NCBI GenBank assembly: GCA_018819225.1
Contig: JAHJQN010000004.1
Span: forward strand, 66,813 to 130,812
Length of the DNA: 64,000 nt
Reading direction: 5' to 3'
Source of the DNA: Candidatus Micrarchaeota archaeon
GTDB taxonomy: Archaea > Micrarchaeota > Micrarchaeia > Norongarragalinales > SBBD01
Below the pieces are notes generated by a model, which worked only from the letters and a program-made list of their open reading frames with translations, made no database searches and was not told where the DNA came from. The position numbers were made by a program, and so were the translations under genes. Positions 21,133 through 39,162 of this stretch are shown in pieces (positions within the stretch are counted from its first letter, which is position 1; the number at the start of each line of letters is the position of its first letter).

Positions 21133-23655
21133 ATGTTCCGACAGGTATTTGCGGTCATTCTCTTTGCCTCGCTGGTTTCATCTATTTCCAATTGGGATAC
21201 GCATCAGCATGACCTGGAGAATACGGGTTCAACCCCTGAATCCGGACCTGAAAACTTCAACATATTAGGGGAATTCGGCCGCTGGAATCCAAGCTATGAG
21301 TGTTATACTGGAAGTGCTCCGCCGGATCATGCCCCCCTTTTACACAATGGCCGCTTGTATATGTATACGAGCCATCCTGTACAAGTTTTTGCGATTTGCG
21401 TTTATCAATACGACGATCCCGTAAACGGATTTATGGGTCAAATTGGTTGCGATGTTCAGTCCACGCCCATTGTGGTAGGCGACACGCTTTTCACTCACTG
21501 CGGGTTTGATCCCGGATTCCCTCCGCACAATCAAATCAAAGCATGGGATGTCGAAACGCTGAGCTTGAAATGGAAACGGAATCTCCCGTTATTTGGCTGG
21601 TACAATTCCATGAACGGCATGACGTACGGAGCGAATAAGATTTTCATCGGTTATGCCGGAAACGGTGGCGCGCAGCTTCCAACTCTTTGGGCATTAAACG
21701 CTTCTTCCACCAATCCCTTTGGTCAAGAGGTCTGGAAAATCACTTTTCCCGACCATTTCGGAAAAATCTACCGAGCGCCGCTATTTTTGAATGAGAGCCT
21801 CTATGTTTCGTACGGAAATCAAAGCGGTTTTTTTCTGATAAAATTAAACGCAAATACCAGTGATGAAATTTGGACGCGGAAAGTGGGGTCCGAGCCCGGT
21901 TTTGTATCTCCCATTCATCATGGCGGCACCATTTACACGGCAGGAAACTCGCTGAGGGCATACGATGAAGACGGAAACGAGAAATGGGCGAGAGGAGTAT
22001 ACGGTACCGCCTACGGACTAACGTATTGGAAAGACCAAATCATTTACTTCGGTCTCCCACAAACTAATTGGGGGAGAATGCACGCCATTAACGCTACGAA
22101 CGGATCGCTGATATGGCAATATGACTATCCGGTGACCGGAGGTTATGCGCGAGGTACACCCGCTGTTTCGGAAAACGGAATTATTTATCATTGCGGGGGA
22201 CCGAATTTCTTTGTTGCAATCAATGCGACGGATGGAACAAAGCTCTGGCATTCTGCTTTGGGTTGCCGTGATCAATCCCCCTCCGTTTATCGCGGTATTA
22301 CGTATGTTCCGACTCGTTCAAGTGATTCAAATGGGTGGACGTTGGCCATCGGTCCCGAATTCCCTCCCAACGAACCGCCTATGGTTACTGTAACGGGTCC
22401 GGGATGGGCTTTGATGGGTAACGAATTCAATGTAACGGGTGATGCGGTGGATTCGGATGGAATAATCAGCAACCATTCCTGGACGTACGATCCATCATTC
22501 TGCAACTTGAATCTTGAAACTTCTAATGGTATGGGTACTTCTCACTTCACTTCCATTGCAACGTTTGTTTGTTACGCGGTGGGTCCGCAAGTATTCGAGA
22601 TGGGCGTATTTGATAATGCGGGTACGATGCAAAACGACCAGGATACGGTTGAAATTCTGGATGTGGCGCCAGTCCTCGGCAATTTTGACATCATTCCAGA
22701 TCCCATTCTTTATTGGGCGGATGGAATCCTTCGCGGACAAACGTTTTCAGTTGCCAATTGTAAGGATGGATCCGGGGATCCCATTGACTGCGGATACTTT
22801 TCGGATCCTGCGTGGAACTTGCAGGGGTTTGAGGATGACGGAATAACTCAAATCGTTGAATTCGCCGATTTTTCGCAAACCTATTTGGCTGTTGATACGG
22901 CTTCCATTGACCAGAGCGGAAATTTCTGGGTGGAGTCTGCTGTCCCTGGAGACGGACAAATTCTTGCTGAAATTGATGGAATCGAGCGTTCCGTTGATAT
23001 CGTTGTCAGCGAATATTCATTAACGGTCATTCCGTCAATCATTGAGCTAGTATATGGAGGCGTTCAGGATTTCGATGCCGAGTGCGAGAGTCAAAATGTG
23101 GTCATTTCCTGTCCTCAAGCCCCCGTATGGTCTCTCGAGAACGGTCTTTTTGGTACGATTGATGCGAACACCGGAGTATATACTGCTCCGCTCTTTCCTT
23201 CATCGGGCCAAGTTCACGCGACAATCGGTACGGTATACGGGACCGCCGATGTTTCGGTCTGGGAGAATATCGTTCCCACCAGTTCATCTGAACCCATTCC
23301 GGACATCGTGGAACCCAACATGTTATACTTGAATTGTCCTCGCCTGGTTCAACGTGATGAAACCCTTATCGAGGTTCAGTGTTGGAGAGAAGGAGTTCCG
23401 TGCGATTTGAGTGATATCTCTTTGAATGGTGCTCCATACCAATTCGTAGGAACCGGTCACGGATCGATCTCTTATTCCGTCGAAACCCTGCAAGCAGGAA
23501 CGTATTATCTCACCGCACAGGTTTCCGGTTTGGATACCAGTTCGTGCTCCATTCAGCGTGCAAACCTGCAGCCTGCTTCTGTTCCAGAACTTCATCCCGC
23601 TTTAATCCTGTTTCTGGCCGCGAGCATGCTATTCGTCATGCGGCGTCGAGCTTAG
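21133..23655 (+). CDS. Large secreted surface protein: PQQ-like beta-propeller repeats + Ig-like domains + conserved Cys-containing C-terminal domain + VPXXXP-type C-terminal TM sorting tail
   Basis: 840 aa with a signal peptide. Repeated W/Y-rich propeller blades (ALNASSTNPFGQEVWKI..., AINATNGSLIWQYDY..., AINATDGTKLWHS). C-terminus CPRLV...QCW...PC...SSCSIQ...ASVPELHPALILFLAASMLFVMRRRA. Confidence 0.6.
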   Translation: MFRQVFAVILFASLVSSISNWDTHQHDLENTGSTPESGPENFNILGEFGRWNPSYECYTGSAPPDHAPLLHNGRLYMYTSHPVQVFAICVYQYDDPVNGFMGQIGCDVQSTPIVVGDTLFTHCGFDPGFPPHNQIKAWDVETLSLKWKRNLPLFGWYNSMNGMTYGANKIFIGYAGNGGAQLPTLWALNASSTNPFGQEVWKITFPDHFGKIYRAPLFLNESLYVSYGNQSGFFLIKLNANTSDEIWTRKVGSEPGFVSPIHHGGTIYTAGNSLRAYDEDGNEKWARGVYGTAYGLTYWKDQIIYFGLPQTNWGRMHAINATNGSLIWQYDYPVTGGYARGTPAVSENGIIYHCGGPNFFVAINATDGTKLWHSALGCRDQSPSVYRGITYVPTRSSDSNGWTLAIGPEFPPNEPPMVTVTGPGWALMGNEFNVTGDAVDSDGIISNHSWTYDPSFCNLNLETSNGMGTSHFTSIATFVCYAVGPQVFEMGVFDNAGTMQNDQDTVEILDVAPVLGNFDIIPDPILYWADGILRGQTFSVANCKDGSGDPIDCGYFSDPAWNLQGFEDDGITQIVEFADFSQTYLAVDTASIDQSGNFWVESAVPGDGQILAEIDGIERSVDIVVSEYSLTVIPSIIELVYGGVQDFDAECESQNVVISCPQAPVWSLENGLFGTIDANTGVYTAPLFPSSGQVHATIGTVYGTADVSVWENIVPTSSSEPIPDIVEPNMLYLNCPRLVQRDETLIEVQCWREGVPCDLSDISLNGAPYQFVGTGHGSISYSVETLQAGTYYLTAQVSGLDTSSCSIQRANLQPASVPELHPALILFLAASMLFVMRRRA

Positions 23656-23695
23656 CCAGCATGATTTATATACTTCTTTCCCAACTCCTTAATTC

Positions 23696-24247: not shown

Positions 24248-24251
24248 AGCG

Positions 24252-24706: not shown

Positions 24707-27700
24707 ATGCCTCGAATTCATCTCTTATCTCTTGCATTATTCGCTCTTTTCGTTGGTAATGCATTGGCGATTACCAATTGGGCGTTGCGGGAATTCGATG
24801 CCGGCAACATAATGAGTAGTCCGGACGGTCCGGAAATGCCTCTCCAGCTCCTCGGATACTTTGGTAGTACGGGCAGCGGTTGCTATACCGCCCAAGATAA
24901 TAACTACATGCCGGGCGGCGTTCTCGCTTACAACGGTAAAGCGTACATGGTTGCCGCAATAGGCGGCAGTGGAATTCCGACCACATTCCACATCTGCGTA
25001 TTCGACTATAACGAGCCTTCTGAAAATCCGATTCAAATCATTGACATCGATACCCAGGTGTCCCCTGCAATTTACAAGAATATACTGTATGCCTGGGTGG
25101 AAGGGAGTCAAAGACTCGTTGCCTACGACCTCGTTTCAAACACCATCAAATGGCAAATCAGTTTGGATACGTCGGGTGTGCGTGGCAACATCTATCACGT
25201 TCCCATCGTGGCCGACGATAAGGTGTTCATGACAACCAGTGCTTTCATGGGTCCGACGCGAGTGTGGGCCCTGGATTATGAGACGGGTGCCGAGGTATGG
25301 AAACGAGTATACGAAGGGCAGTGGAGCTGGGGCCCAAAATTCGCCTATATGCCCGCTTTCGGAGACGGTCGCTTGTATACCGTATTTGTGAACGAAACCA
25401 CTTTTGACGGCAGTACCCAAAACATTACTACTGAGGCAATCGATGCAGACACCGGCGCATTGATATGGCAAAAGAGCGGGATATTAAGCGGTAACATCTA
25501 TTGGGAGATGTACGATTCCGCGCCTGTTTTTCACGGTGGCTGGCTATACACTTTCATCGATACTACTGGCGGCTATCAAGTTTACCGCCGTTCGGCAGCG
25601 TCCGGAGGGTTAAGTTGGTCGTCACCAGCAAGTACTGGAACTCATTATGGAATAACGGTTTCAGATGATCGAGTTTTCATGACACGGGGCGGCATACCCG
25701 GAGCTCCCCTTTACGCGTATGCTCTTTTCGGATCCGATGGGAGTGACGATTGGATGACTGCTCTTTCCAGTTTACATCATCCTCAAGGCGTTCCTGCCAC
25801 GCTGGGAAACGGGTTGCTTTATTATTCAACTCGGCAGGCAACGAAGGCATTGAATTCCGTTACCGGCGAAATTATTGATGGGACCCTTAAATACATGACG
25901 AAACGCAAGCTCGCTGTCACGTACAACAATTTGCTGTATATTCCGGCTGTTGGCGGCGGAAACCCCGATAATGGATTGGTGGCTATTTATGGTACGGCTC
26001 TTCCTTCCAACCTTCCGCCAAATGCCGAAGCCAACGGTCCTTACAGCGGCTTAATCAATGAAGTCATTCCCCTCGTTGGAATGGGTTGGGATGAAGATGG
26101 CGTGATTACCAATATTCAATGGGATATTTCCACGCATCCGGAATGCGTGCTCAACAACATTAACGTACAAAACCTTAATACCGAAACCGCTAATATTTTC
26201 GCTGATCTGGCGTGTTCTTCCACAGGAGTCAAGGTCATCACGCTGATTGCGACAGATGATGATGGCTTGCAGGCATCGGATACCGCATTTGTAGCCATTG
26301 GAGGCGTTGGCAGTGGCGGAGACCCTCCGGTAGTAGAGGCAGGTGGTCCGTATGCCGGTGAAGTTGACACCGCTATTCCCATTTTCGGTTTTGCCTACGA
26401 TGACGGCAGCATTACTGCTCTTTCTTGGACCTCGATTCCTGCGGATTGTACTCTATCAAATGAGATGTACAATTTGGTAACGGATCCCGCCACCGCGTAC
26501 GCCGATATCTCGTGCACTATCGCCAATCCGGTTCCCAAATCCATTTCATTAGAGGCAACGGATAACGATGCCAATCACGGCACCGATGACGCGGATTTGT
26601 TGATCTTGCCAGTAGGCGGAAATTTCCCCCCGACGGTTTCTATCATTGCCGCTCCTCCTTGGATTGAAGAAAATACTCCGTTTCAAGTAGTGGCTGAAGG
26701 CCGCGATCAAGACGGCAACCTCGTCTCAGTTACGTGGACCCATCCCACGTGCAGTTTTGTTAGCGCCAATAACAATCCCCCGCTACCCGCCCCGAACACC
26801 ATTTCGACGCTAACCACTTCCTGCGCAACTATCGGCCAAGCTACGGTTACCGTTCTAGTCACCGACAATGATGGGGCAACGGCTAGTGACCAAGCGGTCG
26901 TTCAAATCGTGGCTTCAGGCGATGAACCTGAAATGACTTCCATAGAAATCGATTCTTCTGATGAGCATTGGGCTGACTTTATTGACCGATCCCAAATCTA
27001 CGATATTACTTGCTACAACGATTTCGGCCCCATGAACTGCTTCGGTACTCTTTCTTGGGGACTCCAGGCATTTCCTCCGCAAGATGCTACCTTGATATTC
27101 GATATTCAGAATGACGGCACATTCCATCTGCAAACCGACCGACCCGTCACAGGCCAAGTGACCGCTTCCTTGAATAATATGGATGGATTTTTCAGCGATG
27201 ATGAGCCTGTGACCGCTAACCCGTACTTGATTGAAGTAGATCCTTCGATTGCATTGCTTCCTCACGGCGGCGAGCAACAATTTGCGGCTTCATGCACGGA
27301 TGCCGGAGGAACGCCTATGGCCTGCCCCGGTCCCGGAACCCTGGAATGGTCTTTGATAGGAATCGGCGGCACCATTGACGCTACCGGACATTATTCAGCA
27401 CCCTTTACCGATGCAACGGGCCAAGTACGAGCGAATATTGGCTCGGTGAACGGGTTTGCTACCGTAATTGTGCAGGAAACGATTCCGACTCCAACGGTTC
27501 CTCCGGGAGGCGCGACGCCAACCTTTGTTTTCGTTCAAGGCAACGTATTAACGCTTGATTGTCCTAGAATTGCGTATACGGATCAATCGGCGGTTGTGGT
27601 TCAGTGCTGGAAGGGCGGAGAGCCCTGTTCTGCATCCGATATTCAATTAATGGGTTCTTCAAATGCGCTGGTGAGTGAAGGCCACGGGAGCTTTACTTAC

Positions 27701-27892
27701 GTGGTTGAGACCGTCACGGATGGCGAGTATTCGTTGCTAGCAACGGCTTCTGGTATGGACGGCCAGTCATGTTCCATTAATCGAGTGGAGCCCGAAGCAG
27801 GCTCTATTCCGGAGCTGCATCCTGTTCTAATCATCATCGCATTGTTTACGGCATTAATGGTTACGCGCAGACGTACCCGAGCTTTAATCTAA
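24707..27892 (+). CDS. Large secreted surface protein (paralog of 21133-23655): PQQ-like propeller + multiple Ig/PKD-like domains + conserved Cys C-terminal domain + VPXXXP-type tail
   Basis: 1061 aa with a signal peptide (MPRIHLLSLALFALFVGNALA). Propeller-like repeats. Repeated segments of about 95 aa (NGPYSGLINEVIPLVGMGWDEDGVITNIQWD..., GGPYAGEVDTAIPIFGFAYDDGSITALSWT...). C-terminus CPRIA...QCW...PC...QSCSINR...GSIPELHPVLIIIALFTALMVTRRRTRALI. Confidence 0.6.
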   Translation: MPRIHLLSLALFALFVGNALAITNWALREFDAGNIMSSPDGPEMPLQLLGYFGSTGSGCYTAQDNNYMPGGVLAYNGKAYMVAAIGGSGIPTTFHICVFDYNEPSENPIQIIDIDTQVSPAIYKNILYAWVEGSQRLVAYDLVSNTIKWQISLDTSGVRGNIYHVPIVADDKVFMTTSAFMGPTRVWALDYETGAEVWKRVYEGQWSWGPKFAYMPAFGDGRLYTVFVNETTFDGSTQNITTEAIDADTGALIWQKSGILSGNIYWEMYDSAPVFHGGWLYTFIDTTGGYQVYRRSAASGGLSWSSPASTGTHYGITVSDDRVFMTRGGIPGAPLYAYALFGSDGSDDWMTALSSLHHPQGVPATLGNGLLYYSTRQATKALNSVTGEIIDGTLKYMTKRKLAVTYNNLLYIPAVGGGNPDNGLVAIYGTALPSNLPPNAEANGPYSGLINEVIPLVGMGWDEDGVITNIQWDISTHPECVLNNINVQNLNTETANIFADLACSSTGVKVITLIATDDDGLQASDTAFVAIGGVGSGGDPPVVEAGGPYAGEVDTAIPIFGFAYDDGSITALSWTSIPADCTLSNEMYNLVTDPATAYADISCTIANPVPKSISLEATDNDANHGTDDADLLILPVGGNFPPTVSIIAAPPWIEENTPFQVVAEGRDQDGNLVSVTWTHPTCSFVSANNNPPLPAPNTISTLTTSCATIGQATVTVLVTDNDGATASDQAVVQIVASGDEPEMTSIEIDSSDEHWADFIDRSQIYDITCYNDFGPMNCFGTLSWGLQAFPPQDATLIFDIQNDGTFHLQTDRPVTGQVTASLNNMDGFFSDDEPVTANPYLIEVDPSIALLPHGGEQQFAASCTDAGGTPMACPGPGTLEWSLIGIGGTIDATGHYSAPFTDATGQVRANIGSVNGFATVIVQETIPTPTVPPGGATPTFVFVQGNVLTLDCPRIAYTDQSAVVVQCWKGGEPCSASDIQLMGSSNALVSEGHGSFTYVVETVTDGEYSLLATASGMDGQSCSINRVEPEAGSIPELHPVLIIIALFTALMVTRRRTRALI

Positions 27893-28356: not shown

Positions 28357-28515
28357 TGGTATTTAAATCAGGCGCTGGGGATCGGGATTAAGCCCTCTAG
28401 GAGAAAGCCTAGAACGAAGAAGGAAGCGGCGGGAGGATGAGCGTATACGGCTGGACTACAACGCGGTATTCGAGAATACGAACGATTTTATAAATATCTT
28501 GAATTTATCTAATTC

Positions 28516-29247
28516 ATGCCAATACCCCATTTACGCTTATTACAAGCGGTTCATGTCCTAGGTGTGGACCATTCCTCTCAACAGAGTACGCAAAAAGTGG
28601 TTAACTATTTACATTTTGGTATTGGCCAAAAGGTAATTGAAGGTACCTCGGGTGCCATCGCAATCGATTCATCTATTCCACCGGGTGCAGACCCGAAATC
28701 AAGAAGTATAAATAATGGTAAACGAGTGGGCATTGAATTGACTAGAAAAGAACTAGAAGAGTTTCGAGAACTGTATCGGAAAATCATGAAAGGAGAAGAT
28801 CTCCCAAAGCGCGTATCCACAATTCATGATCCTTTTTTTATAAATATGGTTCGATATGAAGCGCTGCATGGCGTTCAACTGGTTCCAGTTGATTCTGAGA
28901 AATTAAAACAATATTACCTTCGAGCAATGGAACGTGCGGAAAAACTGAAACTTGCTGGAAATGCTGAAGAAGCAGCCAAGCAAGAAGCAAGAGCTAACGA
29001 AGCGTGGATTCCTGCTCGCGAAGCGGCAATTGCTCGAACCATTGCTCGGGAAAAGTTGAAAATTAATATTGTAGGCAGATTCCACTCGGAAGCAGTTTCG
29101 AAAAGATTGAATGAAGAGCATAATGTGACTGCTTTTCCATTGAAATTTGTTTCAGCTAGAATGGAATCGCGATTAAAACACTTTGATGATTTCGGTGGTT
29201 TTATTCGGGCCCGAGAAATGTATTCAAAAAGAAGAATGCGAAAATAG
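28516..29247 (+). CDS. Hypothetical protein (element cargo)
   Basis: 243-aa charged, coiled-coil-rich ORF inside the repeat-bounded region. Confidence 0.35.
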   Translation: MPIPHLRLLQAVHVLGVDHSSQQSTQKVVNYLHFGIGQKVIEGTSGAIAIDSSIPPGADPKSRSINNGKRVGIELTRKELEEFRELYRKIMKGEDLPKRVSTIHDPFFINMVRYEALHGVQLVPVDSEKLKQYYLRAMERAEKLKLAGNAEEAAKQEARANEAWIPAREAAIARTIAREKLKINIVGRFHSEAVSKRLNEEHNVTAFPLKFVSARMESRLKHFDDFGGFIRAREMYSKRRMRK

Positions 29248-29397
29248 TCGCGTAATATCTAACAGAATGATTTCTGTTATAAATAGACGCGCTGGGGATG
29301 GGCGTATAGGCTTGAGGGAGGCAAATCCGCGGATTCTAACTAATTGTTCAAGCGCCGGGGAGGAGATTCAGGCCAAATAGTTCGAATCTCCTACAAT

Positions 29398-29997: not shown

Positions 29998-30034
29998 AAC
30001 TATCCCGATGAGATATTACTACTGCCTTCATGAA

Positions 30035-30307
30035 CTAATGTTTGAAAGTCTCATACTCTTTCTTGCTAATCTCATTCCCATCCGCAATACGAATCCGTTC
30101 TTTAGAATGCTCATCGCATAATTCGAATAATTTGTTCGCATATTCTAGTTCATGCTTAATCCCATGTATAAAATCTTCTATTTTTTCTACTATGTTTCGT
30201 TTATCTTCCTTAACATAGCTATACCGATAAAAGTGAGTTGGTTTTTGTTCACAATTTTTAATATAACAACGGTCAATATGCCATTCTATTGAAAACGAAG
30301 GTTCCAT
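30035..30307 (-). CDS. Hypothetical small protein (element cargo)
   Basis: 90-aa ORF with no motif recognised. Confidence 0.3.
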   Translation of the reverse strand: MEPSFSIEWHIDRCYIKNCEQKPTHFYRYSYVKEDKRNIVEKIEDFIHGIKHELEYANKLFELCDEHSKERIRIADGNEISKKEYETFKH

Positions 30308-30413
30308 AACAAACGTAGTACTTGAGGTACTATATATTTAACGGTAATAACTTGGGTAAGTATGTGCTCTTTCCCGCGACCTTATAAAGTATGTTTAAGC
30401 CATAATAATTGGG

Positions 30414-31334: not shown

Positions 31335-31441
31335 ACCCATACGGGCCAGAGGCCCACCAGATATCTGGTCTTTCAACCTTTTTTTATAGTGTAGGCGAAA
31401 GATCTCGAGTCTGGCGCGTTACCGGATTCCGCCACCCCAGC
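31316..31441 (-). tRNA. tRNA-Ser(CGA), type II, with an intron of about 41 nt in the anticodon loop
   Basis: Manual fold: acceptor GCUGGGG/CCCCAGC; D-arm GCG...CGC; anticodon stem CCAGA/UCUGG with loop CUCGAGA (anticodon CGA); long variable arm GGGCC-UCU-GGCCC; T-arm AUGGG-UUCAAAU-CCCAU; discriminator G. About 41 nt are inserted at 37/38 (AUCUUUCGCCUACACUAUAAAAAAAGGUUGAAAGACCAGAU). Confidence 0.7.
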
Positions 31442-32073: not shown

Positions 32074-32607
32074 ATGCGCTTTGCTCCATTTGCTCGAACG
32101 GCTTTCTTCATGGTATTCCTGGTTTCGATAGCGCTTTCTCTATCCGTTTCCGCGGGCGTAGCGGTACTCGTCAAGCAAGACGTGGATAAGGCCACGTGGC
32201 AGGCGCGTCCGTGGATGTCCCCCATTATCACGGAAGAAGAGTCGAAAGCCACTCGATGGATTGAAGAGAATACGTTGGAACGCGATATTTTTGTCACGGA
32301 TATTTTTGGCGGCGAACACATTATGGGCAATACGTTGCGGGAAGGCACGGAAGGAGGGGATTGGGCCATTGTTCCAGGAGTCGTTGAAAAAATGGGGGAA
32401 ATCAATGAGTTCTATTCGACGAAGGATGCGGATCGCGCGTATGTTCTTGCCACGAAGCATGGCGCGAAATACGTGTTGATTCCGAATCGACAAATCTTTG
32501 CGGGATTCAAATGGTTTTATCCCGAGAAAGGGAAAATGGAGAACGCTCAATATTTCAAGCGCGTGTATTCCGATAACGATTTTGAGATTTATCAAGTGAT
32601 TCGTTGA
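32074..32607 (+). CDS. Membrane-anchored soluble domain protein homologous to the C-terminal domains of GT-C/PMT-like glycosyltransferases
   Basis: 177 aa with an N-terminal signal anchor. The soluble domain (DADRAYVLATKHGAKYVLIPN...YFKRVYSDNDFEIYQVIR) is similar to the C-terminal domains of 19207-21057 and 33910-35829. Its stop overlaps the next membrane-protein gene by 4 nt. Confidence 0.4.
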   Translation: MRFAPFARTAFFMVFLVSIALSLSVSAGVAVLVKQDVDKATWQARPWMSPIITEEESKATRWIEENTLERDIFVTDIFGGEHIMGNTLREGTEGGDWAIVPGVVEKMGEINEFYSTKDADRAYVLATKHGAKYVLIPNRQIFAGFKWFYPEKGKMENAQYFKRVYSDNDFEIYQVIR

Positions 32608-33926
32608 TGAATGCATTCTTGATGATGAAAAGGAACCCGGTGCCGTTGCTGCTGCTTCTAGCCGTCGCGTTGAGTTTGTATACGCATTCCATGGTCTGGA
32701 AAGAGTTTACGATGCCCACGTACGGGAACACGTTCATTCACGTGGCAAGCATTCGGCACATGTTAGAACACGCGTCTTACCCCGTGATTGATTATTCGTA
32801 TGGCGGAGGGATTCCGAACCTTTACGTGCCGTTTTACCGCTTGTTTATCGCGAATTCCGTGTTGCTTACTGGCTTGTCCATTGACTTTATTTCTCGGTTG
32901 GCGGTCATGTTGTTTGCGATATTGGTGCCGCTAGGGTTCTTCGCGGTCACGAAGCGCTTGTTCGGCTTGAACGCGGGAATAGCGGCTGCTTTTCTGGCGA
33001 GTTTTCCTGGAGAACTCTTGATTTACACGGTTCGACCGCTACCGCAGTCACTGGGAATGGTCTTGCTCCCCGTTGCCTTCCTTGCTATATTCTCCGAAAA
33101 GTGGAGGCCGGCGTTGTTGATCACGTTTGGAATCGCCATGGTTCACCAGGAAGCAATTGCTTTTCTTGTGGGGGCGGTAGGCGTGTATGCTGCCGTTGCC
33201 TTTTTGTTCTATTTGATTGGTGAGGCGAAGAATATTCGAGTGGGAACTGCGCGCATGATGACGTCTTCTGCGCTTTCCGAGCTCAAAATCGCGCGTCTGG
33301 CAGTGGTTGTGGCGATCCTGGGACTCGCTTCGTACGTTTTATGGCACTATTTCGTCATGAACTCGTTCAACATCTTTGATATCGCTCAATTCAAGTATCA
33401 TGAAGGGGGTTTGGTGACCGTTGACTCCTTTCTAACTAAAACTGGCATTATCGTAACCGTTTTTTCGTTGTTGGGGCTTACGTTTGTGGGTTATCGGTTA
33501 CTGGAACTCGTTGCTTCCCAGTCCCATCGCTTCCGATCCTTGTCGAATGAAGTGCAGTTTGGGCTGCGTAACTCGGCGTTATTCTTGGTCGTGGCTTTGG
33601 CAACGTATTTTCATTTCAATAACTATTCGATGGCTTCCGTGAGCCTTCAAAGCCTTGGCTCGGCCATTGTACTGGGATTGATGATCGTCATTTTCGTGGC
33701 ATTTATCTCCCACACGCCGACGTTTATGCAATTGCCGAACTCCTCCTTCTTGTTCACGTTCGCGGTGTTCGGAGCTGGCGTAGCTGCAGTCAAGAATGAC
33801 GTGGTGGGCATTCGCGTATTCATGGACCGTTTCTTGGTTCACTTGCAGGAGCCCCTTATTATTTTGGCTGCGCTAGGAGTGGCAGCCGTATACGAATTCT
33901 TCGAAGCAATTAGGGAACGGCCTTGA
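32604..33926 (+). CDS. Polytopic membrane protein, GT-C glycosyltransferase-like membrane domain (lacks the soluble domain, which is encoded by the upstream gene)
   Basis: 440 aa with more than 10 TM helices and no large soluble domain. Translationally coupled to 32074-32607. Confidence 0.45.
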   Translation: MMNAFLMMKRNPVPLLLLLAVALSLYTHSMVWKEFTMPTYGNTFIHVASIRHMLEHASYPVIDYSYGGGIPNLYVPFYRLFIANSVLLTGLSIDFISRLAVMLFAILVPLGFFAVTKRLFGLNAGIAAAFLASFPGELLIYTVRPLPQSLGMVLLPVAFLAIFSEKWRPALLITFGIAMVHQEAIAFLVGAVGVYAAVAFLFYLIGEAKNIRVGTARMMTSSALSELKIARLAVVVAILGLASYVLWHYFVMNSFNIFDIAQFKYHEGGLVTVDSFLTKTGIIVTVFSLLGLTFVGYRLLELVASQSHRFRSLSNEVQFGLRNSALFLVVALATYFHFNNYSMASVSLQSLGSAIVLGLMIVIFVAFISHTPTFMQLPNSSFLFTFAVFGAGVAAVKNDVVGIRVFMDRFLVHLQEPLIILAALGVAAVYEFFEAIRERP

Positions 33927-35829
33927 ATAGCTCGTAACGCCGGTTTCCTTCCTCGTACTCCCATACGACTTCAAAGGCATTCGATTGACGGATTTGTCGG
34001 GAGAGGTTTCGGTTCTTGCTTAGCTCGAACGGACTCACTATTACGTAATCAATTCCGTGTACTCCGGACAGATCTCCGCGTTCGATGGCCGAGTTGACTA
34101 GTTTCCGTTGGTTTTGGTAATCCAATCCATGCGACCACATATGGCCTTCATAACCCATAACCACTTGTCTTCCTGCCAGTGAATAAATGAAGTGGTTGTG
34201 ACTGGAGGCGGTTAGAAACAACGCATTTTTTTCGGTAGTCTCGGAAACCTTTTGCGCGGCGTGAATATCGGAAGCGTGAAACAAGACGTGCGACGTATTA
34301 TTCCAGTACATGAACGTGAGGATTCCTGAAAAGATGCTTATGAATAACATGATCGAAACGATCCCCGTTGATAGAAAGCGATTCAATCGAATCCTATGAG
34401 CCAACCACGTGAACGCTCGTGATAAGGCAATGGATGCAAGGAAAGCGGTGAGGAGTAGCCAGTGCGCAAAATATTTGATGTTATCCCAATCCCACGGCTG
34501 GAACCGCGCGATATTGGCCGCTAGAAACACGAGGGCAAACGGGATATAGAACGTTCGAAGCTTGCTGTCCGCTAACACGAATCCAATCAATGCAAGCGGA
34601 ATCAATAACCCCGTATTCGCGATCCAGAAAACGCCTATATCCACTATATTGGTCGTATTGGCCAGCCAGCCGGCTTGCCATTCAAAAAACGTTTCGGTGC
34701 GGGGTTGTTCGTTTATCCATAACAGCTGTGGTAAAATTAGGAGGAAGCCAAATATCGCTGAGAAAAGAACGGGTTTCTCCAATTTCTTTTTTTGAAAAAT
34801 ACGCCATGCCAGCAAGAAAGCGGTTACGAAACCCGCGATAGCGAATGAAGCAATGTGGATAAGGGGAAGCAACGCTAGAACGAACGCGAGTAAATAATAT
34901 TCGTTGTTTTTCGCTTCGTTCCAATGAATGCGCGCCAACAACCAATACGCTACAAGGGATAAAGCGAAGCCCATCAATACGGTGCGTTGGGGAATGAATA
35001 CGGAATAAACGAGATTCATGAACTCAATGTGTTGGTCTTGAATTTTCGAGTAGTCTTGCGGAAGTCGTGATAAGAACGCACCGACATCCGGAGCGCCTTG
35101 AATGTCTTCAATGAAGGACAGGAATCCGAAATTCCCGTTAATAAAGAATAGGAGTATCGCAAACACGGCAACATACTTCATTTTTCCGGAAAGTGTTGAG
35201 AAGAATAATCTCGCAAGGAATACGAGAGCGAACAGCAAGAGCAAGTTCGGAATAATAATGCTATGCTGCAACGACAGGCCTCCAACAATTAAAATGGCTG
35301 AAAGGAAATCAAACAGAAAGGGATACCGCATGACCGCGCCCTCCAGATTCGGGTAAATGGGTGGAAAATTGTCGCGGAGAACGAACGAATTGATGATGCT
35401 GACGTGAAATGGGTAGTCCCCCCAGGCATTTTGAATGGAGTAAATGGATCCGCTCGAGTCCACGTTGAATGAAAGAAAGTTGAAATACGCCAATAAAAGA
35501 AATACGCCTAATGCGGCTGCGAATCCGTAAGAAATTCCGTTCAGTGAAAGTTCGGGTAATCCTTTTTGCCACCGCTTGTTCGAATTCAATAATGCAGTTG
35601 AGACGCCGACACTCATGATGACTACTCGTAGAATCATTAAGAAATCCAATTCGCGGACGATTAATGATAAAAGGAACGTCGCGAACGTAGTGATGGCAAG
35701 CCCCAACGCCATTCCGATGGCCAGAAATGTTGAAACGGATTTCTTGGTTGGAAAGTAAACGGAAATGGCGAACCCGAGTAGTACGCTGGATAGTACAAAC
35801 AAAAGGGCGAGCCACATGTGGTTTCCCAC
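33910..35829 (-). CDS. Polytopic membrane glycosyltransferase-like protein (GT-C/PMT-ArnT-like) with C-terminal soluble domain
   Basis: 639 aa. About 12 TM helices are followed by a soluble domain (DIHAAQKVSETTEKNALFLTASSHNHFIYSLAGRQVVMGYEGHMWSHGLDY...HGIDYVIVSPFELSKN...RRYELFKAVP). Confidence 0.5.
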   Translation of the reverse strand: MGNHMWLALLFVLSSVLLGFAISVYFPTKKSVSTFLAIGMALGLAITTFATFLLSLIVRELDFLMILRVVIMSVGVSTALLNSNKRWQKGLPELSLNGISYGFAAALGVFLLLAYFNFLSFNVDSSGSIYSIQNAWGDYPFHVSIINSFVLRDNFPPIYPNLEGAVMRYPFLFDFLSAILIVGGLSLQHSIIIPNLLLLFALVFLARLFFSTLSGKMKYVAVFAILLFFINGNFGFLSFIEDIQGAPDVGAFLSRLPQDYSKIQDQHIEFMNLVYSVFIPQRTVLMGFALSLVAYWLLARIHWNEAKNNEYYLLAFVLALLPLIHIASFAIAGFVTAFLLAWRIFQKKKLEKPVLFSAIFGFLLILPQLLWINEQPRTETFFEWQAGWLANTTNIVDIGVFWIANTGLLIPLALIGFVLADSKLRTFYIPFALVFLAANIARFQPWDWDNIKYFAHWLLLTAFLASIALSRAFTWLAHRIRLNRFLSTGIVSIMLFISIFSGILTFMYWNNTSHVLFHASDIHAAQKVSETTEKNALFLTASSHNHFIYSLAGRQVVMGYEGHMWSHGLDYQNQRKLVNSAIERGDLSGVHGIDYVIVSPFELSKNRNLSRQIRQSNAFEVVWEYEEGNRRYELFKAVP

Positions 35830-35946: not shown

Positions 35947-35988
35947 CGAACGACCTTTCTTATGAAGAAAGCTCGACCAAAGAAAAAG

Positions 35989-36009
35989 AAAGCGGGCCCA
36001 ACGGGATTC
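35989..36009. repeat. 21-bp direct repeat copy within tRNA-Arg 3' end
   Basis: See 35926-35946. Confidence 0.6.
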
Positions 36010-36175
36010 GAACCCGCAACCTACTGGTCTCTCCCCCATCACGCTGTTGCGCCGAAGGAAAAAGGACTAGCCCTTTTCCCGGGACCGAAGCCACGACTTC
36101 CGTCTCTTCCAATAAAAAGTGAAAGAGCAAGTGGGACCGGAACCAGTCGCTCTGTCCTGGTTGAGCTATGGGCCC
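35993..36175 (-). tRNA. tRNA-Arg(CCG) with an unusually long intron (about 108 nt) at the canonical 37/38 position
   Basis: Manual fold. Exon 1: GGGCCCA-UA-GCUC-AACCAGGACA-GAGC-G-ACUGG-UUCCGG. Exon 2: A-CCAGU-AGGUU-GCGGG-UUCGAAU-CCCGU-UGGGCCC-G. The acceptor, D, anticodon and T stems pair perfectly except for one G-U pair in the T stem. The anticodon is CCG. The sequence 36029-36136 is intronic. The intron length is far above typical, so the exact exon junctions are tentative. Confidence 0.55.
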
Positions 36176-36238
36176 TTATTTCAATTACCTGGTATTCTGA
36201 AGTTTAAAATACTTGGCCTGTCAGAAGTTATGCGCGTG

Positions 36239-36321
36239 GCCGGGGTGGCAGAGCGGTTATTGCGCTGGTCTTGAAAACCAGTTCCCGCAAGGGATCAGGA
36301 GTTCGAATCTCCTCCCCGGCG
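36239..36321 (+). tRNA. tRNA-Ser(TGA), type II, no intron
   Basis: GCCGGGG-UG-GCAG-AGCGGUUA-UUGC-G-CUGGU-CUUGAAA-ACCAG-UUCCCGCAAGGGAUC-AGGAG-UUCGAAU-CUCCU-CCCCGGC-G. Anticodon UGA. Long variable arm UCCC-GCAA-GGGA. Confidence 0.85.
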
Positions 36322-39162
36322 TTCAAAAGATAAGCTTTTATTTGATAGATTAGAAATGCGCTTCCGAACGATCAGGGAGACAATGCCTATAATGAAGAGA
36401 ATCATGATGGGATGCCATTCCGGTGTTCGGCTTGAAACGATTCCGGTTCTTTGAATGTCGCAGGAATCGCTTCCGACCCCTGAAGAAGCACGGACTTCAT
36501 AGTTTATGCTCAGTGGCGTGTCAACGATATACCTGAATACGTTTCCGTTTACTGCTTCCAATTGATGAGGAGCACCGCTTAAAACGACGCCCGAACATGC
36601 TTTTCCTTCAACGATACATTGAACGGTTATGCGGGTATGATCGGACGCAGTAATGCGCGGGCAGGCTAGGGATAACACGCTTGCTTCTTGATATTCACCT
36701 GGCAACCCGCCATCTCCTCCCGGATCGGGTGTTGGCGTAATGGGTGGAGCGCCTGGTGGAAGAATGGTTATACTGGCTTCATCCGAATCGGAAAGGCCGC
36801 CGTCATCCCACACCGTTAGTATAGCTAAACGAGTCGTTTCTTCCGTGCACATGACGTTAAACGTATCGGTTTGTTGTCCGTTCAAAATGCAGTCGGTAGT
36901 ATCATTTAATTCCCATAACCAGGCGACGATCGTTCCGTCCGGATCATGGGATGCACTTCCATCCACGTTGACATCAATGCCTACCCACGTAAACACGTCT
37001 CCTCCTGCATTTGCAGAAGGAGGTATGTTTTCTCCACCGGGTGTAGCAGAAATGATCCATTGTTCTTGAAGATAATCGCTTTGAGATTCGTTATCCACGC
37101 ACGTAGCATCTACCAGCCAAAGGCCTTCAAACAGTAATGGTACATCGGAGTGATCTAATACCCAAAAATCGGTTCCGGGTACTTGAACCGCGTTGTCGTT
37201 GAAGACTTCTGAACTGGCAGGGTTTGTCATCGATAGCGTAACGAGGTCTAAAGCATTTTCTGGATCCGTGCATTCTGTCCGTGTTTGGTAAACGGTTTCT
37301 TCAAAAACAAGACTCGTGCAGTCCCCCCAATTTTCTGAACCCGTAGAATCGCATTCGATAGAGCTAATTATTGGAGGTAAGTTAGAGTTGATTTCCCAAA
37401 CTTCGTCTCTGCTTGTGGTTTCAATGGGAAATCCGTGACATGTGGCTCTTAACCGCCAAGCCCCCCCTTTATCGACGGGAACATTTAGTCCCTGTAAGCT
37501 ATAGAAGTCCCCCTCTTGTTGAGTATACCATCCGGAAGCGCGTTCGATCATGTCCGGATCAATCAATCGGAAATCTACGTAATCGACACCCCAGTCTTCA
37601 TCCGCACATTCCGCTCCCACTGCGGTAATCATTTCCATATACCGTGCATTCGTGCAATTAACGAATCCATCCCCTTCATCGCAAAGAATGTCTCCGAGAA
37701 CCAGGGGAATGTTTTCATTAAACCGTTGGGCAAGGACGCTCGTGGGGGGCAACCCATGGATGTCCGATCCTTTCTTGCCGAAACCCATGATGACTCCCCC
37801 GCCGCTATCCGGAATCGATTTAACGCTTTGAAAACCAAATCCAGAGCTGTCCGTGGAAAGTATGATGTTTGGGTTCCATAACGGATCCTTAACGCCATTA
37901 CTTAGGTATTTCGTTACATAATAGTATCGATCTGCCCCGATGGTTACGTCCGCATAATGAAGATAGACATCGTTTAACGAATCCATGGTGGCATCAATGC
38001 TCCAAGCAGAATCATCGATCGTCTTTAGCGTAGTCCATTCTGGAGCGATGGTTCCATTCGCCTGAACGCGCTGTAAAAATGTACGGCCATGGTATCCTTG
38101 TCCATTGACGAACGTTTCGGTAGTCCTTCCAATATAGTAAAATCCATTTTCGTTATCTGGCAATATTTTTTCAATGAACCCCTTGTTTGGAAGCGTGAGG
38201 TCTATACCCGTACTTCCCCACACTGGAGCAGGTGAGCCATTCTCATCCAGCTTGAGGAAACGCACGCGGTATTCGCTTCCTGGTAATCGGTAGTTTATTC
38301 CAACATAAGTGTATCCGTCACTAGAACGCGCTATGTATGCAAATGATTGCCATTCCCAAGCCGGATTATGATTCTGAATCAAAAAACCTTCTGCCGGCCA
38401 GCCCACTTCAACATCTCCACTCCCGTCCAAACGAATCAAGTAGATTTTTCCATCTGAAGTATCATGCCATGAAACAAATACGCCTCCATTCCCGTCGATG
38501 ATGCCACCGGCCATTCCTGAATTAGAGTTAGGAGCGTATATCGATTCCTTGATTAACGTCCTGAATAAAACCGTTCCCGTCGGACTTACTTTTAAGGCCC
38601 ATAAATCAGCCACACTAGAACCTAGTTTTCCGCAATCACCAGAGTTTCGACAGCGAGTATAAACGACATAGAAGTTACCATCGGAATCCGTAAACATATC
38701 CTTCAAATAGTTTTTTCCTTCATCCGAGTTATGGATTCTGGTTTTTCCCCAAATAATATTTTCATTCCCATCCAATCGTGCAGCGTACAGATTATAGTCA
38801 TATCCATAAGCAGGCGGCACGTTTGTTGCCCAAACCATGTATACTCCATTTGCGCCATCACTCGCAGACATTAGCCCGTGGCTCCATGGAGAAAAGTTTA
38901 CGTCAAGACTCCATAACGGTCTCCCAAAACTATTGAAATGATTTACAAAAGGTTGTGGATCCGCATAACCATTAACCGTTGCGTCATCCACCCATGTCAC
39001 GAATGCGCCGCCGAGTCCGTCATCAGCGATTTGAACCGTCTGGCCGCGATGATCGGAGACTTCCCAACGATAGGCTCCATAGAGGTGTTGGATGGCTGCT
39101 TCAGAAGAACTGGAAACAAGCAGCAATACCATGGCGATTTTGAGTAAGTGGTTCATGAACAA
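36295..39162 (-). CDS. Large secreted surface protein (third paralog): beta-propeller-like repeats + conserved Cys C-terminal domain + TPXXXP-type TM tail
   Basis: 955 aa with a signal peptide (MFMNHLLKIAMVLLLVSSSSEA). C-terminus CPRITASDHTRITVQCIVEGKAC...GSDSCDIQRTGIVSSRTPEWHPIMILFIIGIVSLIVRKR. The last roughly 9 codons overlap the 3' end of tRNA-Ser(TGA) on the other strand. Confidence 0.6.
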   Translation of the reverse strand: MFMNHLLKIAMVLLLVSSSSEAAIQHLYGAYRWEVSDHRGQTVQIADDGLGGAFVTWVDDATVNGYADPQPFVNHFNSFGRPLWSLDVNFSPWSHGLMSASDGANGVYMVWATNVPPAYGYDYNLYAARLDGNENIIWGKTRIHNSDEGKNYLKDMFTDSDGNFYVVYTRCRNSGDCGKLGSSVADLWALKVSPTGTVLFRTLIKESIYAPNSNSGMAGGIIDGNGGVFVSWHDTSDGKIYLIRLDGSGDVEVGWPAEGFLIQNHNPAWEWQSFAYIARSSDGYTYVGINYRLPGSEYRVRFLKLDENGSPAPVWGSTGIDLTLPNKGFIEKILPDNENGFYYIGRTTETFVNGQGYHGRTFLQRVQANGTIAPEWTTLKTIDDSAWSIDATMDSLNDVYLHYADVTIGADRYYYVTKYLSNGVKDPLWNPNIILSTDSSGFGFQSVKSIPDSGGGVIMGFGKKGSDIHGLPPTSVLAQRFNENIPLVLGDILCDEGDGFVNCTNARYMEMITAVGAECADEDWGVDYVDFRLIDPDMIERASGWYTQQEGDFYSLQGLNVPVDKGGAWRLRATCHGFPIETTSRDEVWEINSNLPPIISSIECDSTGSENWGDCTSLVFEETVYQTRTECTDPENALDLVTLSMTNPASSEVFNDNAVQVPGTDFWVLDHSDVPLLFEGLWLVDATCVDNESQSDYLQEQWIISATPGGENIPPSANAGGDVFTWVGIDVNVDGSASHDPDGTIVAWLWELNDTTDCILNGQQTDTFNVMCTEETTRLAILTVWDDGGLSDSDEASITILPPGAPPITPTPDPGGDGGLPGEYQEASVLSLACPRITASDHTRITVQCIVEGKACSGVVLSGAPHQLEAVNGNVFRYIVDTPLSINYEVRASSGVGSDSCDIQRTGIVSSRTPEWHPIMILFIIGIVSLIVRKRISNLSNKSLSFERRGGDSNS

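What the first reader, a model, noticed from the sequence alone, without database searches (positions are those of the whole stretch)
21133..39162. Three paralogous giant surface proteins share a 4-Cys C-terminal domain and a VPXXXP-type (ArtB-like) C-terminal sorting tail
The three proteins are 21133-23655 (840 aa), 24707-27892 (1061 aa) and 36295-39162 (955 aa). Each has a signal peptide, PQQ-like beta-propeller repeats and Ig/PKD-like modules.

Each ends with a conserved domain of about 90 aa carrying four invariant Cys (C-P-R-[IL]..., QC[WI], PC or AC, SC-[SD]-I-[QN]-R). This is followed by [VIT]-P-E-[LW]-H-P, a TM helix and a basic cluster (RRR or RKR). VPELHP, IPELHP and TPEWHP all fit the VPXXXP-CTERM class recognised by archaeosortase B.

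No archaeosortase-like gene with an internal Cys/Arg is visible in the window, so the cognate enzyme must be elsewhere. The conserved Cys-domain directly before the signal is not part of the published motif. It may be a lineage-specific stalk or processing determinant. Four GT-C glycosyltransferase-like genes nearby suggest these are glycosylated cell-envelope proteins.
Basis: partly seen in the sequence, partly recalled or inferred. Interest (0 to 1): 0.55.

Follow-up and report, generated by a model that had tools for sequence, protein, structure and literature searches.

The report
Micrarchaeal surface-protein C-terminal anchoring cassette
Three exported surface proteins of a tiny symbiotic archaeon (Micrarchaeota) end in the same ~120-residue module: an immunoglobulin-like domain with four conserved cysteines, then a Pro-Glu/Asp motif, one membrane helix and a basic tail. 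This module is specific to the lineage, fastens varied adhesin-like proteins to the cell, and resembles known archaeosortase sorting signals without matching any of them.

Summary
ORFs 21133-23655(+), 24707-27892(+) and 36295-39162(-) each have a signal peptide and end in a shared module. The module has four invariant Cys, then [VIT]-P-E-[LW]-H-P, a hydrophobic helix and RRR/RKR.

A profile of the module finds about 27 further family representatives among 1.84 billion proteins. Every one that carries a name is Candidatus Micrarchaeota. At least seven copies lie in this genome, on unrelated ectodomains.

AlphaFold2 (pLDDT 95) gives a 7-strand Ig-like sandwich plus a TM helix. Cys co-loss implies C1-C4 and C2-C3 disulfides.

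Across 30 tails, P is 30/30, [ED] 30/30, a hydrophobic residue 28/30, and the distance from P to the first basic residue is 19 in 25/30. The second Pro of "VPXXXP" occurs in only 17/30. The VPXXXP-CTERM model never hits. PEF-CTERM is the only model that aligns over the motif, at 13-18 bits against a cut-off of 23.

About 196 kb of the genome (roughly 20%) contains no archaeosortase, rhomboid or CPBP protease.

Verdict: this is an undescribed, lineage-specific Ig-like domain plus PEF-like tripartite tail. It is probably a sorting signal for an unidentified enzyme. A permanent TM anchor is nearly as likely. The ArtB assignment is not supported.

The parts
21133..23655 (+). P1, 840 aa: signal peptide, PQQ_2/BamB-like beta-propeller, Ig-like domains, Pro/Ser linker, C-terminal cassette
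   Evidence: ORF and translation. Pfam PQQ_2 53 bits against cut-off 27.6. Module E 3e-61.
23317..23580 (+). P1 Ig-like 4-Cys domain (aa ~729-816; Cys 735, 750, 757, 805)
   Evidence: AF2 with a 27-sequence alignment: pLDDT 95, seven strands. Foldseek finds only generic Ig-like folds such as filamin, ICAM, SbsC and intimin. Coordinates.
23581..23652 (+). P1 tripartite tail: VPELHP, hydrophobic helix, RRRA
   Evidence: The helix is residues 103-120 of the model.
24707..27892 (+). P2, 1061 aa: signal peptide, PQQ_2 propeller, K319L-like PKD repeats, Ig-like domains, cassette. Identical to the NCBI protein 'PQQ-binding-like beta-propeller repeat protein [Candidatus Micrarchaeota archaeon]'.
27542..27805 (+). 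P2 Ig-like 4-Cys domain (Cys 952, 967, 974, 1022)
27806..27889 (+). P2 tail: IPELHP, helix, RRRTRALI
   Evidence: Best known-model match of the three window tails: PEF-CTERM TIGR03024 at 17.7 bits, cut-off 23.
36295..39162 (-). P3, 955 aa (953 by gene callers): signal peptide, an N-terminal region different from P1/P2 (weak SBBP-propeller hit, paralogous to P0038), PKD domain, cassette
   Evidence: The N-terminus resembles P0038.
36427..36681 (-). P3 Ig-like 4-Cys domain (Cys 834, 849, 856, 901)
36298..36426 (-). P3 tail: TPEWHP, helix, RKR, plus an atypical 20-aa extension
   Evidence: The extension overlaps tRNA-Ser at 36239-36321.
19207..21057 (+). 616-aa polytopic membrane protein 75 bp upstream of P1. 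Paralogue of 33910-35829. Family unknown; GT-C is not verified. Context only.
   Evidence: blastp 2e-14 to 33910-35829. No Pfam, NCBIfam or PDB hit. AF2 pLDDT 36.
33910..35829 (-). 639-aa polytopic membrane protein downstream of P3 on the same strand. Paralogue of 19207-21057. Context only.

Best explanation
The shared C-terminus is a Micrarchaeota-restricted anchoring and sorting cassette. It has been joined to many different Sec-exported ectodomains.

Shown here:
- A Pro/Thr-rich linker leads into an ~85-residue Ig-like beta-sandwich.
- Cys co-variation implies this domain is stapled by two disulfides, C1-C4 and C2-C3.
- It is followed directly by a tripartite tail. The signature is P-[ED]-hydrophobic-[H/N/S/P]. 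Then come ~14-15 hydrophobic residues and a basic cluster, with a nearly fixed 19 residues from the Pro to the first Arg/Lys.
- At the least, this topology is N-out/C-in, positive inside. It holds the ectodomain on the outer face of the cytoplasmic membrane on an Ig-like stalk.

Inferred:
- The invariant, precisely spaced P-[ED]-hydrophobic signature is the recognition site of a dedicated sorting endopeptidase or transpeptidase encoded elsewhere in the genome.
- The enzyme is most likely a divergent member of the exosortase/archaeosortase family, because the motif is closest to PEF-CTERM and PEP-CTERM.
- It would remove the helix and leave the protein attached, for example by a lipid.
- The tail is not a VPXXXP-CTERM/ArtB signal.
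For: - Tail statistics over 30 family tails: P 30/30, E or D 30/30 (15 each), hydrophobic at +2 28/30, H/N/S/P at +3 30/30. The distance from P to the first basic residue is 19 in 25/30, with a range of 18-21. Cytoplasmic tails are 2-13 residues, except in P3.
- In the 27-sequence module alignment (23-46% identity), the only invariant or near-invariant columns are C1, the Pro after it, C4 and the Pro of the tail motif. The juxtamembrane motif is therefore as constrained as the disulfide cysteines.
- There are many copies per genome. Five module proteins lie on this one 709-kb contig, and two more carry accessions from the same NCBI series.
- The ectodomains are unrelated: PQQ_2, FG-GAP, LVIVD, NHL/SGL, PKD arrays, Y_Y_Y, BNR_4. 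Proteins of 141-151 aa also exist that are only signal peptide plus module.
- P0014 and P0016 lie in the same gene context (GrpE on one side, PRPP synthetase on the other) and both keep the module.
- PEF-CTERM (TIGR03024) is the only curated model that aligns end to end across the motif, at profile positions 1/2-25 of 25.
- Other C-terminally TM-anchored proteins of the same genome lack the motif, so it is not a general feature of anchors here.
- A tripartite form with several copies per genome is the standard signature of sorting domains. Not all such signals have yet been paired with an enzyme (Haft preprint).
- A named domain family associated with an archaeosortase tail, PGF-pre-PGF, exists in InterPro. 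That it sits directly upstream of the tail is from my own knowledge.
Against: - No exosortase/archaeosortase, rhomboid or CPBP family hit was found in about 196 kb of this genome. That comprises contig record 276.8-309.1, 320.2-410.3 and 416.7-449.7 kb, plus two 20-kb JGI loci.
- None was found beside homologues in other MAGs.
- All known-model scores are below the curated cut-offs.
- In everything sampled, the motif never occurs apart from the Ig-like domain. Its conservation could therefore reflect common descent plus a structural role, such as a helix N-cap at the membrane interface.
- The literature held here places archaeosortases in Euryarchaeota (halophiles, methanogens). It says nothing about them in Micrarchaeota.
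Confidence: 0.45

Rival explanations
1. The tail is a permanent type-I transmembrane anchor. The cassette is simply an Ig-like stalk plus a stop-transfer helix that stays in the mature protein. P-[ED]-hydrophobic is a conserved helix N-cap or interface element inherited with the domain. No sorting enzyme exists.
For: - No candidate enzyme was found in ~196 kb of the genome or beside homologues.
- The motif always travels with the Ig-like domain.
- All CTERM models score below their cut-offs.
- In the AF2 model the helix starts right at the second Pro (residue 103), which fits a capping role.
- Permanent C-terminal TM stalks are known for archaeal S-layer subunits such as SlaB.
Against: - Juxtamembrane residues of a plain anchor are usually among the least conserved. 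Here P and [ED] are 30/30, and the spacing to the basic cluster is fixed at 19 in 25/30 despite 23-46% identity.
- The hydrophobic core is short, about 14-15 residues.
- Other TM-anchored proteins in the genome do without the motif.
Confidence: 0.4
2. One reading: the tails are VPXXXP-CTERM signals recognised by archaeosortase B.
For: The three window tails fit the string V/I/T-P-x-x-x-P.
Against: - TIGR04143 gave no hit at E<=10 on any protein or any of 30 tails.
- The second Pro is present in only 17/30 tails. It is missing in the same-genome paralogues P0038 (LPDFSV), P0007 (VPDFSV) and P0010 (IPEMHV).
- ArtB/VPXXXP is described from Methanosarcinales, whereas this organism is Micrarchaeota.
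- Caveat: I had no positive-control sequence to prove that the TIGR04143 model is in the library.
Confidence: 0.03
3. The tail is cleaved by an enzyme unrelated to archaeosortases. One candidate is the presenilin-family intramembrane protease (PSH) encoded about 7 kb beyond the window end. Another is a secreted subtilisin. Either would shed the ectodomain rather than re-anchor it.
For: - A PSH homologue (NF041679, 98 bits; PF06550) lies at L004 19389-20231.
- A Peptidase_S8 gene lies at L016 4726-6054.
- Presenilins act on type-I helices (my own knowledge).
Against: - My own knowledge is that presenilin-family proteases (PSH/SPP) are widespread housekeeping enzymes in archaea, with no known motif-specific sorting role.
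- No co-occurrence was tested.
- Neither gene is next to a module gene.
Confidence: 0.07

Closest known systems
PEF-CTERM sorting domain (TIGR03024) with archaeosortase C (ArtC)
   Same: - Both are extreme C-terminal tripartite tails: Pro-acidic-hydrophobic signature, one hydrophobic helix, basic cluster.
- Both occur in several copies per genome on exported proteins.
- TIGR03024 aligns over its full length, including the motif.
   Different: - Scores are 13-18 bits against a cut-off of 23.
- Asp is as common as Glu. The +2 residue is F, L, V, I or M. A polar H/N/S/P at +3 is invariant.
- The tail is always preceded by a specific 4-Cys Ig-like domain.
- The organism is Micrarchaeota (DPANN), not a methanogen.
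- No ArtC was found in the ~20% of the genome examined.
VPXXXP-CTERM (TIGR04143) with archaeosortase B (ArtB)
   Same: It has the same general tripartite form. The three window tails happen to have Pro at both positions.
   Different: - There is no HMM hit at all.
- The second Pro is not conserved in the family or among same-genome paralogues.
- The taxonomic range differs.
PGF-pre-PGF domain plus PGF-CTERM with archaeosortase A
   Same: It is a precedent for a dedicated conserved extracellular domain placed directly upstream of an archaeosortase-type tail. The linker before the module is also Pro/Thr-rich.
   Different: - No sequence match to PGF-CTERM or PGF-pre-PGF models was found.
- The motif is P-[ED]-hydrophobic, not PGF.
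- The upstream domain here carries two inferred disulfides.
Permanently TM-anchored archaeal envelope stalk proteins (e.g. Sulfolobales SlaB)
   Same: Both have a signal peptide, beta-rich ectodomains, a single C-terminal helix and a short cytoplasmic tail. No sortase is needed.
   Different: - SlaB-type anchors have no invariant juxtamembrane motif with fixed spacing.
- They are not a cassette shared by many unrelated ectodomains.
Sorting signals found before their enzymes (MYXO-CTERM, JDVT-CTERM, CGP-CTERM with CPBP-family myxosortases)
   Same: - These are tripartite tails that were defined before their enzymes were identified in silico.
- JDVT-CTERM is the most frequent weak hit, on 9 of 30 tails.
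   Different: - Those signals have an invariant Cys in the signature, and these tails have none.
- The JDVT hits cover only the helix and basic part (profile positions 14-34).
- No CPBP protease was seen in the sampled DNA.

Membership tests
VPXXXP-CTERM / ArtB system | Tail scores at or above the curated cut-off of TIGR04143 | tested here: not met
   No hit at E<=10 for 3 full proteins, 3 tails and 30 family tails. I had no positive control for the model.
VPXXXP-CTERM / ArtB system | Both prolines of V-P-x-x-x-P conserved | tested here: not met
   First P 30/30; P at +4 only 17/30. Same-genome paralogues have V or S there.
VPXXXP-CTERM / ArtB system | Cognate archaeosortase B encoded in the genome | tested here: inconclusive
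   None was found in ~196 kb (about 20% of the genome). The rest could not be reached.
PEF-CTERM / ArtC system | Tail scores at or above the TIGR03024 cut-off (23 bits) | tested here: not met
   Scores were 17.7, 18.1, 15.7, 14.0 and 13.2 bits. Among the 30 tails, 5 hit at E<=10, with a best E-value of 0.0019.
PEF-CTERM / ArtC system | P-E-F signature at the start of the C-terminal helix, then a basic cluster | tested here: inconclusive
   The motif is P-[ED]-[FLVIM], with Phe in 9 of 30 tails. The model aligns over positions 1/2-25 of 25. It is similar but not the same motif.
PEF-CTERM / ArtC system | Archaeosortase C in the genome | tested here: inconclusive
   The same partial genome survey as above found none.
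Generic sortase-type C-terminal sorting domain (tripartite) | Short signature, hydrophobic helix and basic cluster at the extreme C-terminus of signal-peptide proteins | tested here: met
.
Generic sortase-type C-terminal sorting domain (tripartite) | Several members per genome on otherwise unrelated proteins | tested here: met
   At least 7 copies occur in this genome, on PQQ, LVIVD, PKD and other ectodomains. However, all of them share the Ig-like domain.
Generic sortase-type C-terminal sorting domain (tripartite) | A processing enzyme whose presence co-varies with the signal | not testable with these tools
   This needs whole proteomes of Micrarchaeota MAGs. Only ±10-kb neighbourhoods could be fetched.
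Ig-like beta-sandwich domain | Seven-strand two-sheet sandwich | tested here: met
   AF2 pLDDT 95, strands E11-15, 24-33, 43-47, 50-55, 59-65, 70-78 and 84-90. Best Foldseek matches are filamin, ICAM and SbsC, with TM-scores normalised to the target of 0.6-0.7 and E about 3e-3. Weak Ig hits came from the profile search.
GT-C glycosyltransferases (neighbouring genes) | Family HMM hit or GT-C fold | tested here: inconclusive
   - 59786-61927: PTPS_related at 44.9 bits, above cut-off.
- 19207-21057, 32604-33926 and 33910-35829: no Pfam or NCBIfam hit.
- 19207-21057 and 33910-35829: no PDB-sequence hit, no hhalign match to 59786-61927, and an AF2 model (19207-21057 with 33910-35829 as its alignment) with pLDDT 36.

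The most novel reading that the evidence does not exclude
Micrarchaeota (DPANN) run a previously undescribed protein-sorting system. Its signal is composite: a doubly disulfide-stapled Ig-like domain plus a P-[ED]-hydrophobic / helix / basic tail. It is processed either by the first archaeosortase-type enzyme known from this phylum or by a non-homologous enzyme. The system displays the organism's set of host-contact adhesins.
Probability: 0.3. Interest if true: 0.7.

Novelty: new variant of a known kind. Interest (0 to 1): 0.42.

Why it matters
Micrarchaeota are reduced-genome episymbionts that live by contact with a host cell. How they build and anchor their surface proteins is essentially unknown. 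The one S-layer study I read leaves the anchoring mechanism open.

This cassette marks at least seven large propeller/PKD proteins in a genome of about 1 Mb. It therefore gives a simple sequence handle, as an HMM, for listing the likely host-interaction surface proteins across the phylum.

If the tail is a true sorting signal, it would extend sortase-type C-terminal processing to a DPANN lineage. It would also set up a clean phylogenetic-profiling problem: find the enzyme that co-occurs with the module.

If it is only a TM anchor, it is an ordinary though unannotated domain family.

Tried and rejected
1. VPXXXP-CTERM/ArtB was rejected on HMM and motif evidence.
2. A search for a sorting enzyme in the window covered ten multi-TM ORFs against Pfam and NCBIfam. 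It found only DUF4010, DUF92, an ABC-2 permease and a PTPS_related protein. The 241-aa membrane protein upstream of P3 (39252-39977) has no family hit and no internal Cys. The 179-aa protein at 55397-55936 has only a sub-threshold Peptidase_U4 hit; it carries His/Asp motifs, and I did not pursue it.
3. I walked the 709-kb contig with the look-up of encoding contigs, using ids obtained through the listing of cluster members. This covered 276.8-449.7 kb with two gaps and found no exosortase, rhomboid or CPBP gene.
4. The word-index homologue search with module alignments returned nothing or only two mini-proteins.
5. The genome-contig scans showed that the source genome is not a GTDB representative there. 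Only one relative locus was found.
7. The GT-C test for the two paralogous membrane proteins failed: hhalign gave no match, the PDB profile search found nothing, and AF2 gave pLDDT 36, so no fold search was attempted.
9. The 'TGLF' tails of two neighbouring OmpL47-domain proteins were tested as PGF-CTERM and gave no hit.
10. N-glycosylation sequon counts were not clearly enriched.
11. A PHROGs scan of the unannotated gene cluster at 41.5-50 kb found no viral signature.
12. Literature searches for archaeosortase or exosortase in Micrarchaeota or DPANN found nothing relevant.
Full report
**Source and setting**

The window is archaeal. Rfam finds two long tRNA matches (126 and 183 nt) that ARAGORN misses, which I take to be intron-containing, and a third tRNA. 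The 1061-aa ORF is 100% identical to an NCBI protein named 'PQQ-binding-like beta-propeller repeat protein [Candidatus Micrarchaeota archaeon]'. That protein lies on a 709,457-bp ENA contig, ERZ27247117 k141_304414. From the locus coordinates, window position x corresponds to contig position 401,019 - x.

**The observation**

ORFs 21133-23655(+), 24707-27892(+) and 36295-39162(-) are present as described. Each starts with a Sec-type signal peptide. Each ends in a common module. In order, the module contains:
- a Pro/Thr/Ser-rich linker;
- L-x-L-x-C-P-R-[LI];
- V-Q-C;
- x-C;
- S-C-[SD]-I-[QN]-R;
- twelve variable residues;
- [VIT]-P-E-[LW]-H-P;
- a hydrophobic stretch;
- RRR or RKR.

P1 and P2 are homologous throughout. 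P3 shares only the module and one PKD-like domain. PQQ_2 passes Pfam's threshold in P1 and P2. P3 instead has PKD domains and a weak SBBP-propeller hit.

**Is the module more than a local paralogy?**

A profile of the three modules, searched against 1.84 billion representative proteins, gave 36 hits. After removing hits that matched only Ig repeats or only a TM tail, 30 family members remain, the three window proteins included. The module sits at their extreme C-terminus. Every member for which a source gives a name is Candidatus Micrarchaeota. The one locus found among GTDB species representatives is an unclassified archaeal MAG.

Neither Pfam nor NCBIfam release 20 has a model that covers the module.

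The ectodomains in front of it are unrelated to one another. They include PQQ_2 propellers, FG-GAP, LVIVD, NHL/SGL propellers, PKD arrays, Y_Y_Y and BNR_4. Proteins of 141-151 aa also exist that are just signal peptide plus module.

P0014 and P0016 sit in the same gene context, with GrpE on one side and PRPP synthetase on the other. They are positional orthologues from different MAGs, and both keep the module.

This genome holds at least seven copies:
- P1, P2 and P3 in the window;
- P0038 at contig position 436.6-439.7 kb;
- P0007 at 286.8-289.3 kb;
- P0009 and P0010, which carry accessions from the same MBU1197xxx series.

**The Cys domain**

AlphaFold2 was run on the P1 module with a 27-sequence alignment. 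It gives mean pLDDT 95, seven beta strands and a C-terminal helix at residues 103-120. Foldseek against the PDB returns only generic Ig-like sandwiches such as filamin, ICAM-1, S-layer SbsC domains and intimin. The best E-value is about 3e-3. A sequence profile against PDB chains gives only weak Ig hits.

Cys co-variation is clean:
- 19 of 27 modules have all four Cys.
- P0017 has lost C1 and C4 together and keeps C2 and C3.
- P0037 has lost C2 and C3 together and keeps C1 and C4.
- A distant subfamily lacks C2, and usually also C3. It has a Cys in the C3 loop (the C3 column in one member, seven columns later in the rest) paired with one ~25-35 columns further on.
- Cys counts are even in all but three modules (P0011, P0012, P0024), each of which carries one extra Cys, in or next to the tail or ahead of C1.

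I infer disulfides C1-C4 (first and last strand) and C2-C3 (a hairpin staple). I could not read the model coordinates to confirm the distances. A DsbA/thioredoxin-fold protein with a CPYC motif lies about 8 kb beyond the window start, so extracytoplasmic disulfide formation is plausible. The domain reads as a membrane-proximal stalk.

**The tail**

Counts over 30 tails, anchored on the motif:

| Position | Residue | Frequency |
|---|---|---|
| 0 | Pro | 30/30 |
| +1 | Glu or Asp (15 each) | 30/30 |
| +2 | hydrophobic | 28/30 |
| +3 | H, N, S or P | 30/30 |
| +4 | Pro | 17/30 |

The distance from the first Pro to the first basic residue is 19 in 25 of 30 tails, with a range of 18-21. After that residue come 2-13 more residues, or 22 in P3.

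In the whole 27-sequence module alignment, the only invariant or near-invariant columns are C1, the Pro after it, C4 and this tail Pro.

The VPXXXP-CTERM model never hits. Same-genome paralogues end in LPDFSV, VPDFSV and IPEMHV. The conserved signature is therefore P-[ED]-hydrophobic, not V-P-x-x-x-P.

The curated model that aligns across the motif is PEF-CTERM (TIGR03024), at profile positions 1 or 2 to 25 of 25. Its scores are 13.2-18.1 bits, below the cut-off of 23. JDVT-, Loki- and Heimdall-CTERM hits cover only the helix and basic cluster.

Other C-terminally anchored proteins of this genome lack the motif:
- a CARDB protein at window 8681-10228;
- a NosD-like protein of 553 aa;
- a 190-aa protein;
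- two OmpL47-domain proteins that share their own 'TGLF' tail.

The motif is thus specific to the cassette. In everything sampled, it never occurs without the Ig-like domain.

**Search for a cognate enzyme**

No ORF in the window matches the exosortase/archaeosortase, rhomboid or CPBP families. I extended the survey along the contig to 276.8-309.1, 320.2-410.3 and 416.7-449.7 kb. I added two 20-kb JGI loci around P0009 and P0010. I read the precomputed Pfam tables and scanned the unannotated membrane proteins.

Nothing of those families appeared. The only intramembrane protease seen is a presenilin-family PSH homologue. Neighbourhoods of homologues in other MAGs were equally negative.

The survey covers about 196 kb. 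The accession range implies roughly 1,050 genes, so this is about one fifth of the genome. The result therefore weakens the sorting hypothesis but does not exclude it.

The literature available describes archaeosortases in a subset of Euryarchaeota, or in halophiles and methanogens. It assigns ArtB to VPXXXP-CTERM and ArtC to PEF-CTERM in Methanosarcinales. I found nothing on Micrarchaeota.

**Interpretation**

What is shown is a lineage-restricted, modular C-terminal cassette. It consists of an Ig-like stalk with two inferred disulfides and a tripartite tail. At minimum it makes these proteins type-I membrane-anchored surface proteins.

What is inferred is whether the helix is later removed. 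Several features favour a dedicated sorting enzyme, most likely a divergent exosortase/archaeosortase relative (0.45):
- the invariance of P-[ED];
- the fixed spacing to the basic cluster;
- the short hydrophobic core;
- the many copies per genome;
- the resemblance to PEF/PEP signatures.

Two things keep a permanent anchor almost as likely (0.40): no enzyme was found in the sampled fifth of the genome, and the motif is strictly coupled to one domain. The specific ArtB/VPXXXP reading is rejected (0.03).

**Surroundings**

The claim of four GT-C genes is only partly borne out.
- 59786-61927 matches PTPS_related above threshold, with a weaker PMT_2 match.
- 32604-33926 shows only a marginal blastp similarity to it (E 0.1).
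- 19207-21057, directly upstream of P1, and 33910-35829, downstream of P3, are paralogues of each other (2e-14). They have no detectable family, PDB or profile relationship, and their AF2 model is unusable.
- Homologues of this pair are not found next to the other module genes sampled.
- N-glycosylation sequon counts are 9, 2 and 8 for P1, P2 and P3. This is not a convincing enrichment.

**Novelty**

The cassette has no model in Pfam (2025) or NCBIfam (June 2026). The family has about 30 representatives at the 50% identity level. It is a new variant of a familiar kind of thing, a C-terminal anchoring or sorting domain. It would become clearly interesting only if a co-occurring processing enzyme is found.

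Noticed in passing
window 36239-36321 (+) versus the ORF end at 36295-36297 (-): A tRNA-Ser(TGA) gene converges on P3 and overlaps its last 27 nt. P3 alone in the family has a 20-aa extension after the basic cluster. The extension looks like read-through into the tRNA's antisense strand.
   Followed up: partly
window 31316-31441 (-) and 35993-36175 (-): Two tRNA genes of 126 and 183 nt were found by Rfam but not by ARAGORN. They are presumably intron-containing archaeal tRNAs.
   Followed up: no
window 28363-31338: A tyrosine-integrase gene (30414-31334) runs into the 3' end of the tRNA at 31316-31441. Direct repeats of 33 nt that match that tRNA end lie at 28363-28395, 29280-29312 and 31306-31338. 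GC falls to 0.41-0.44 across 28-32 kb. This looks like a small integrated element, or two nested ones, right after P2.
   Followed up: partly
window 19207-21057 (+) and 33910-35829 (-): Two paralogous polytopic membrane proteins of ~620 aa (23% identity, E 2e-14) each lie next to a module protein. They share DSSG and NFPPxYP motifs. They have no Pfam, NCBIfam or PDB relative, and the AF2 model failed (pLDDT 36). Their function is unknown.
   Followed up: partly
L008 13828-20811 (-) and 21220-22986 (-); same contig, ~426.7-435.8 kb: Two surface proteins of 2327 and 588 aa carry OmpL47-type beta-barrel domains. Both end in a second shared tail: an acidic or Pro/Thr-rich linker, [ST]-x-T-G-L-F, a helix and a Lys-rich end. 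No curated CTERM model reaches its cut-off (one marginal LPXTG_anchor match, 15.6 vs 15.9 bits, covers only the helix). This may be a second lineage-specific anchor class.
   Followed up: partly
L003 17582-18634; L004 19389-20231 (= L016 10832-11674): The flanks hold a 350-aa DsbA/Thioredoxin_4 protein with a CPYC motif, about 8 kb beyond the window start. They also hold a presenilin-family intramembrane protease (PSH-like, 98 bits), about 7 kb beyond the window end.
   Followed up: partly
window 8681-10228 (-): A 515-aa CARDB/NPCBM_assoc protein sits inside a MacB/FtsX-type ABC transporter operon. It has a plain C-terminal helix and a KKWFKKKK tail, with no P-[ED] motif next to the helix.
   Followed up: partly
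window ~41510-53966 (-): A run of about 20 mostly small minus-strand ORFs has almost no Pfam or PHROGs matches. The only matches are methyltransferase- and acetyltransferase-like. No viral signature was found.
   Followed up: partly
L013 834-8213 (same contig, ~277.6-285.0 kb): An 1853-aa RHS/YD-repeat protein is followed by a 600-aa protein with an RHS-associated core domain. They lie just upstream of a NosD-like protein and the module protein P0007. This could be a toxin-delivery locus in a symbiont genome.
   Followed up: no
L012 5422-7452 and 10001-13390 (GCA_043807785.1, JAZDFO010000131.1): Another Micrarchaeota MAG carries two module proteins, one with an NHL propeller and one with a PKD array, within 3 kb of each other.
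   Followed up: no
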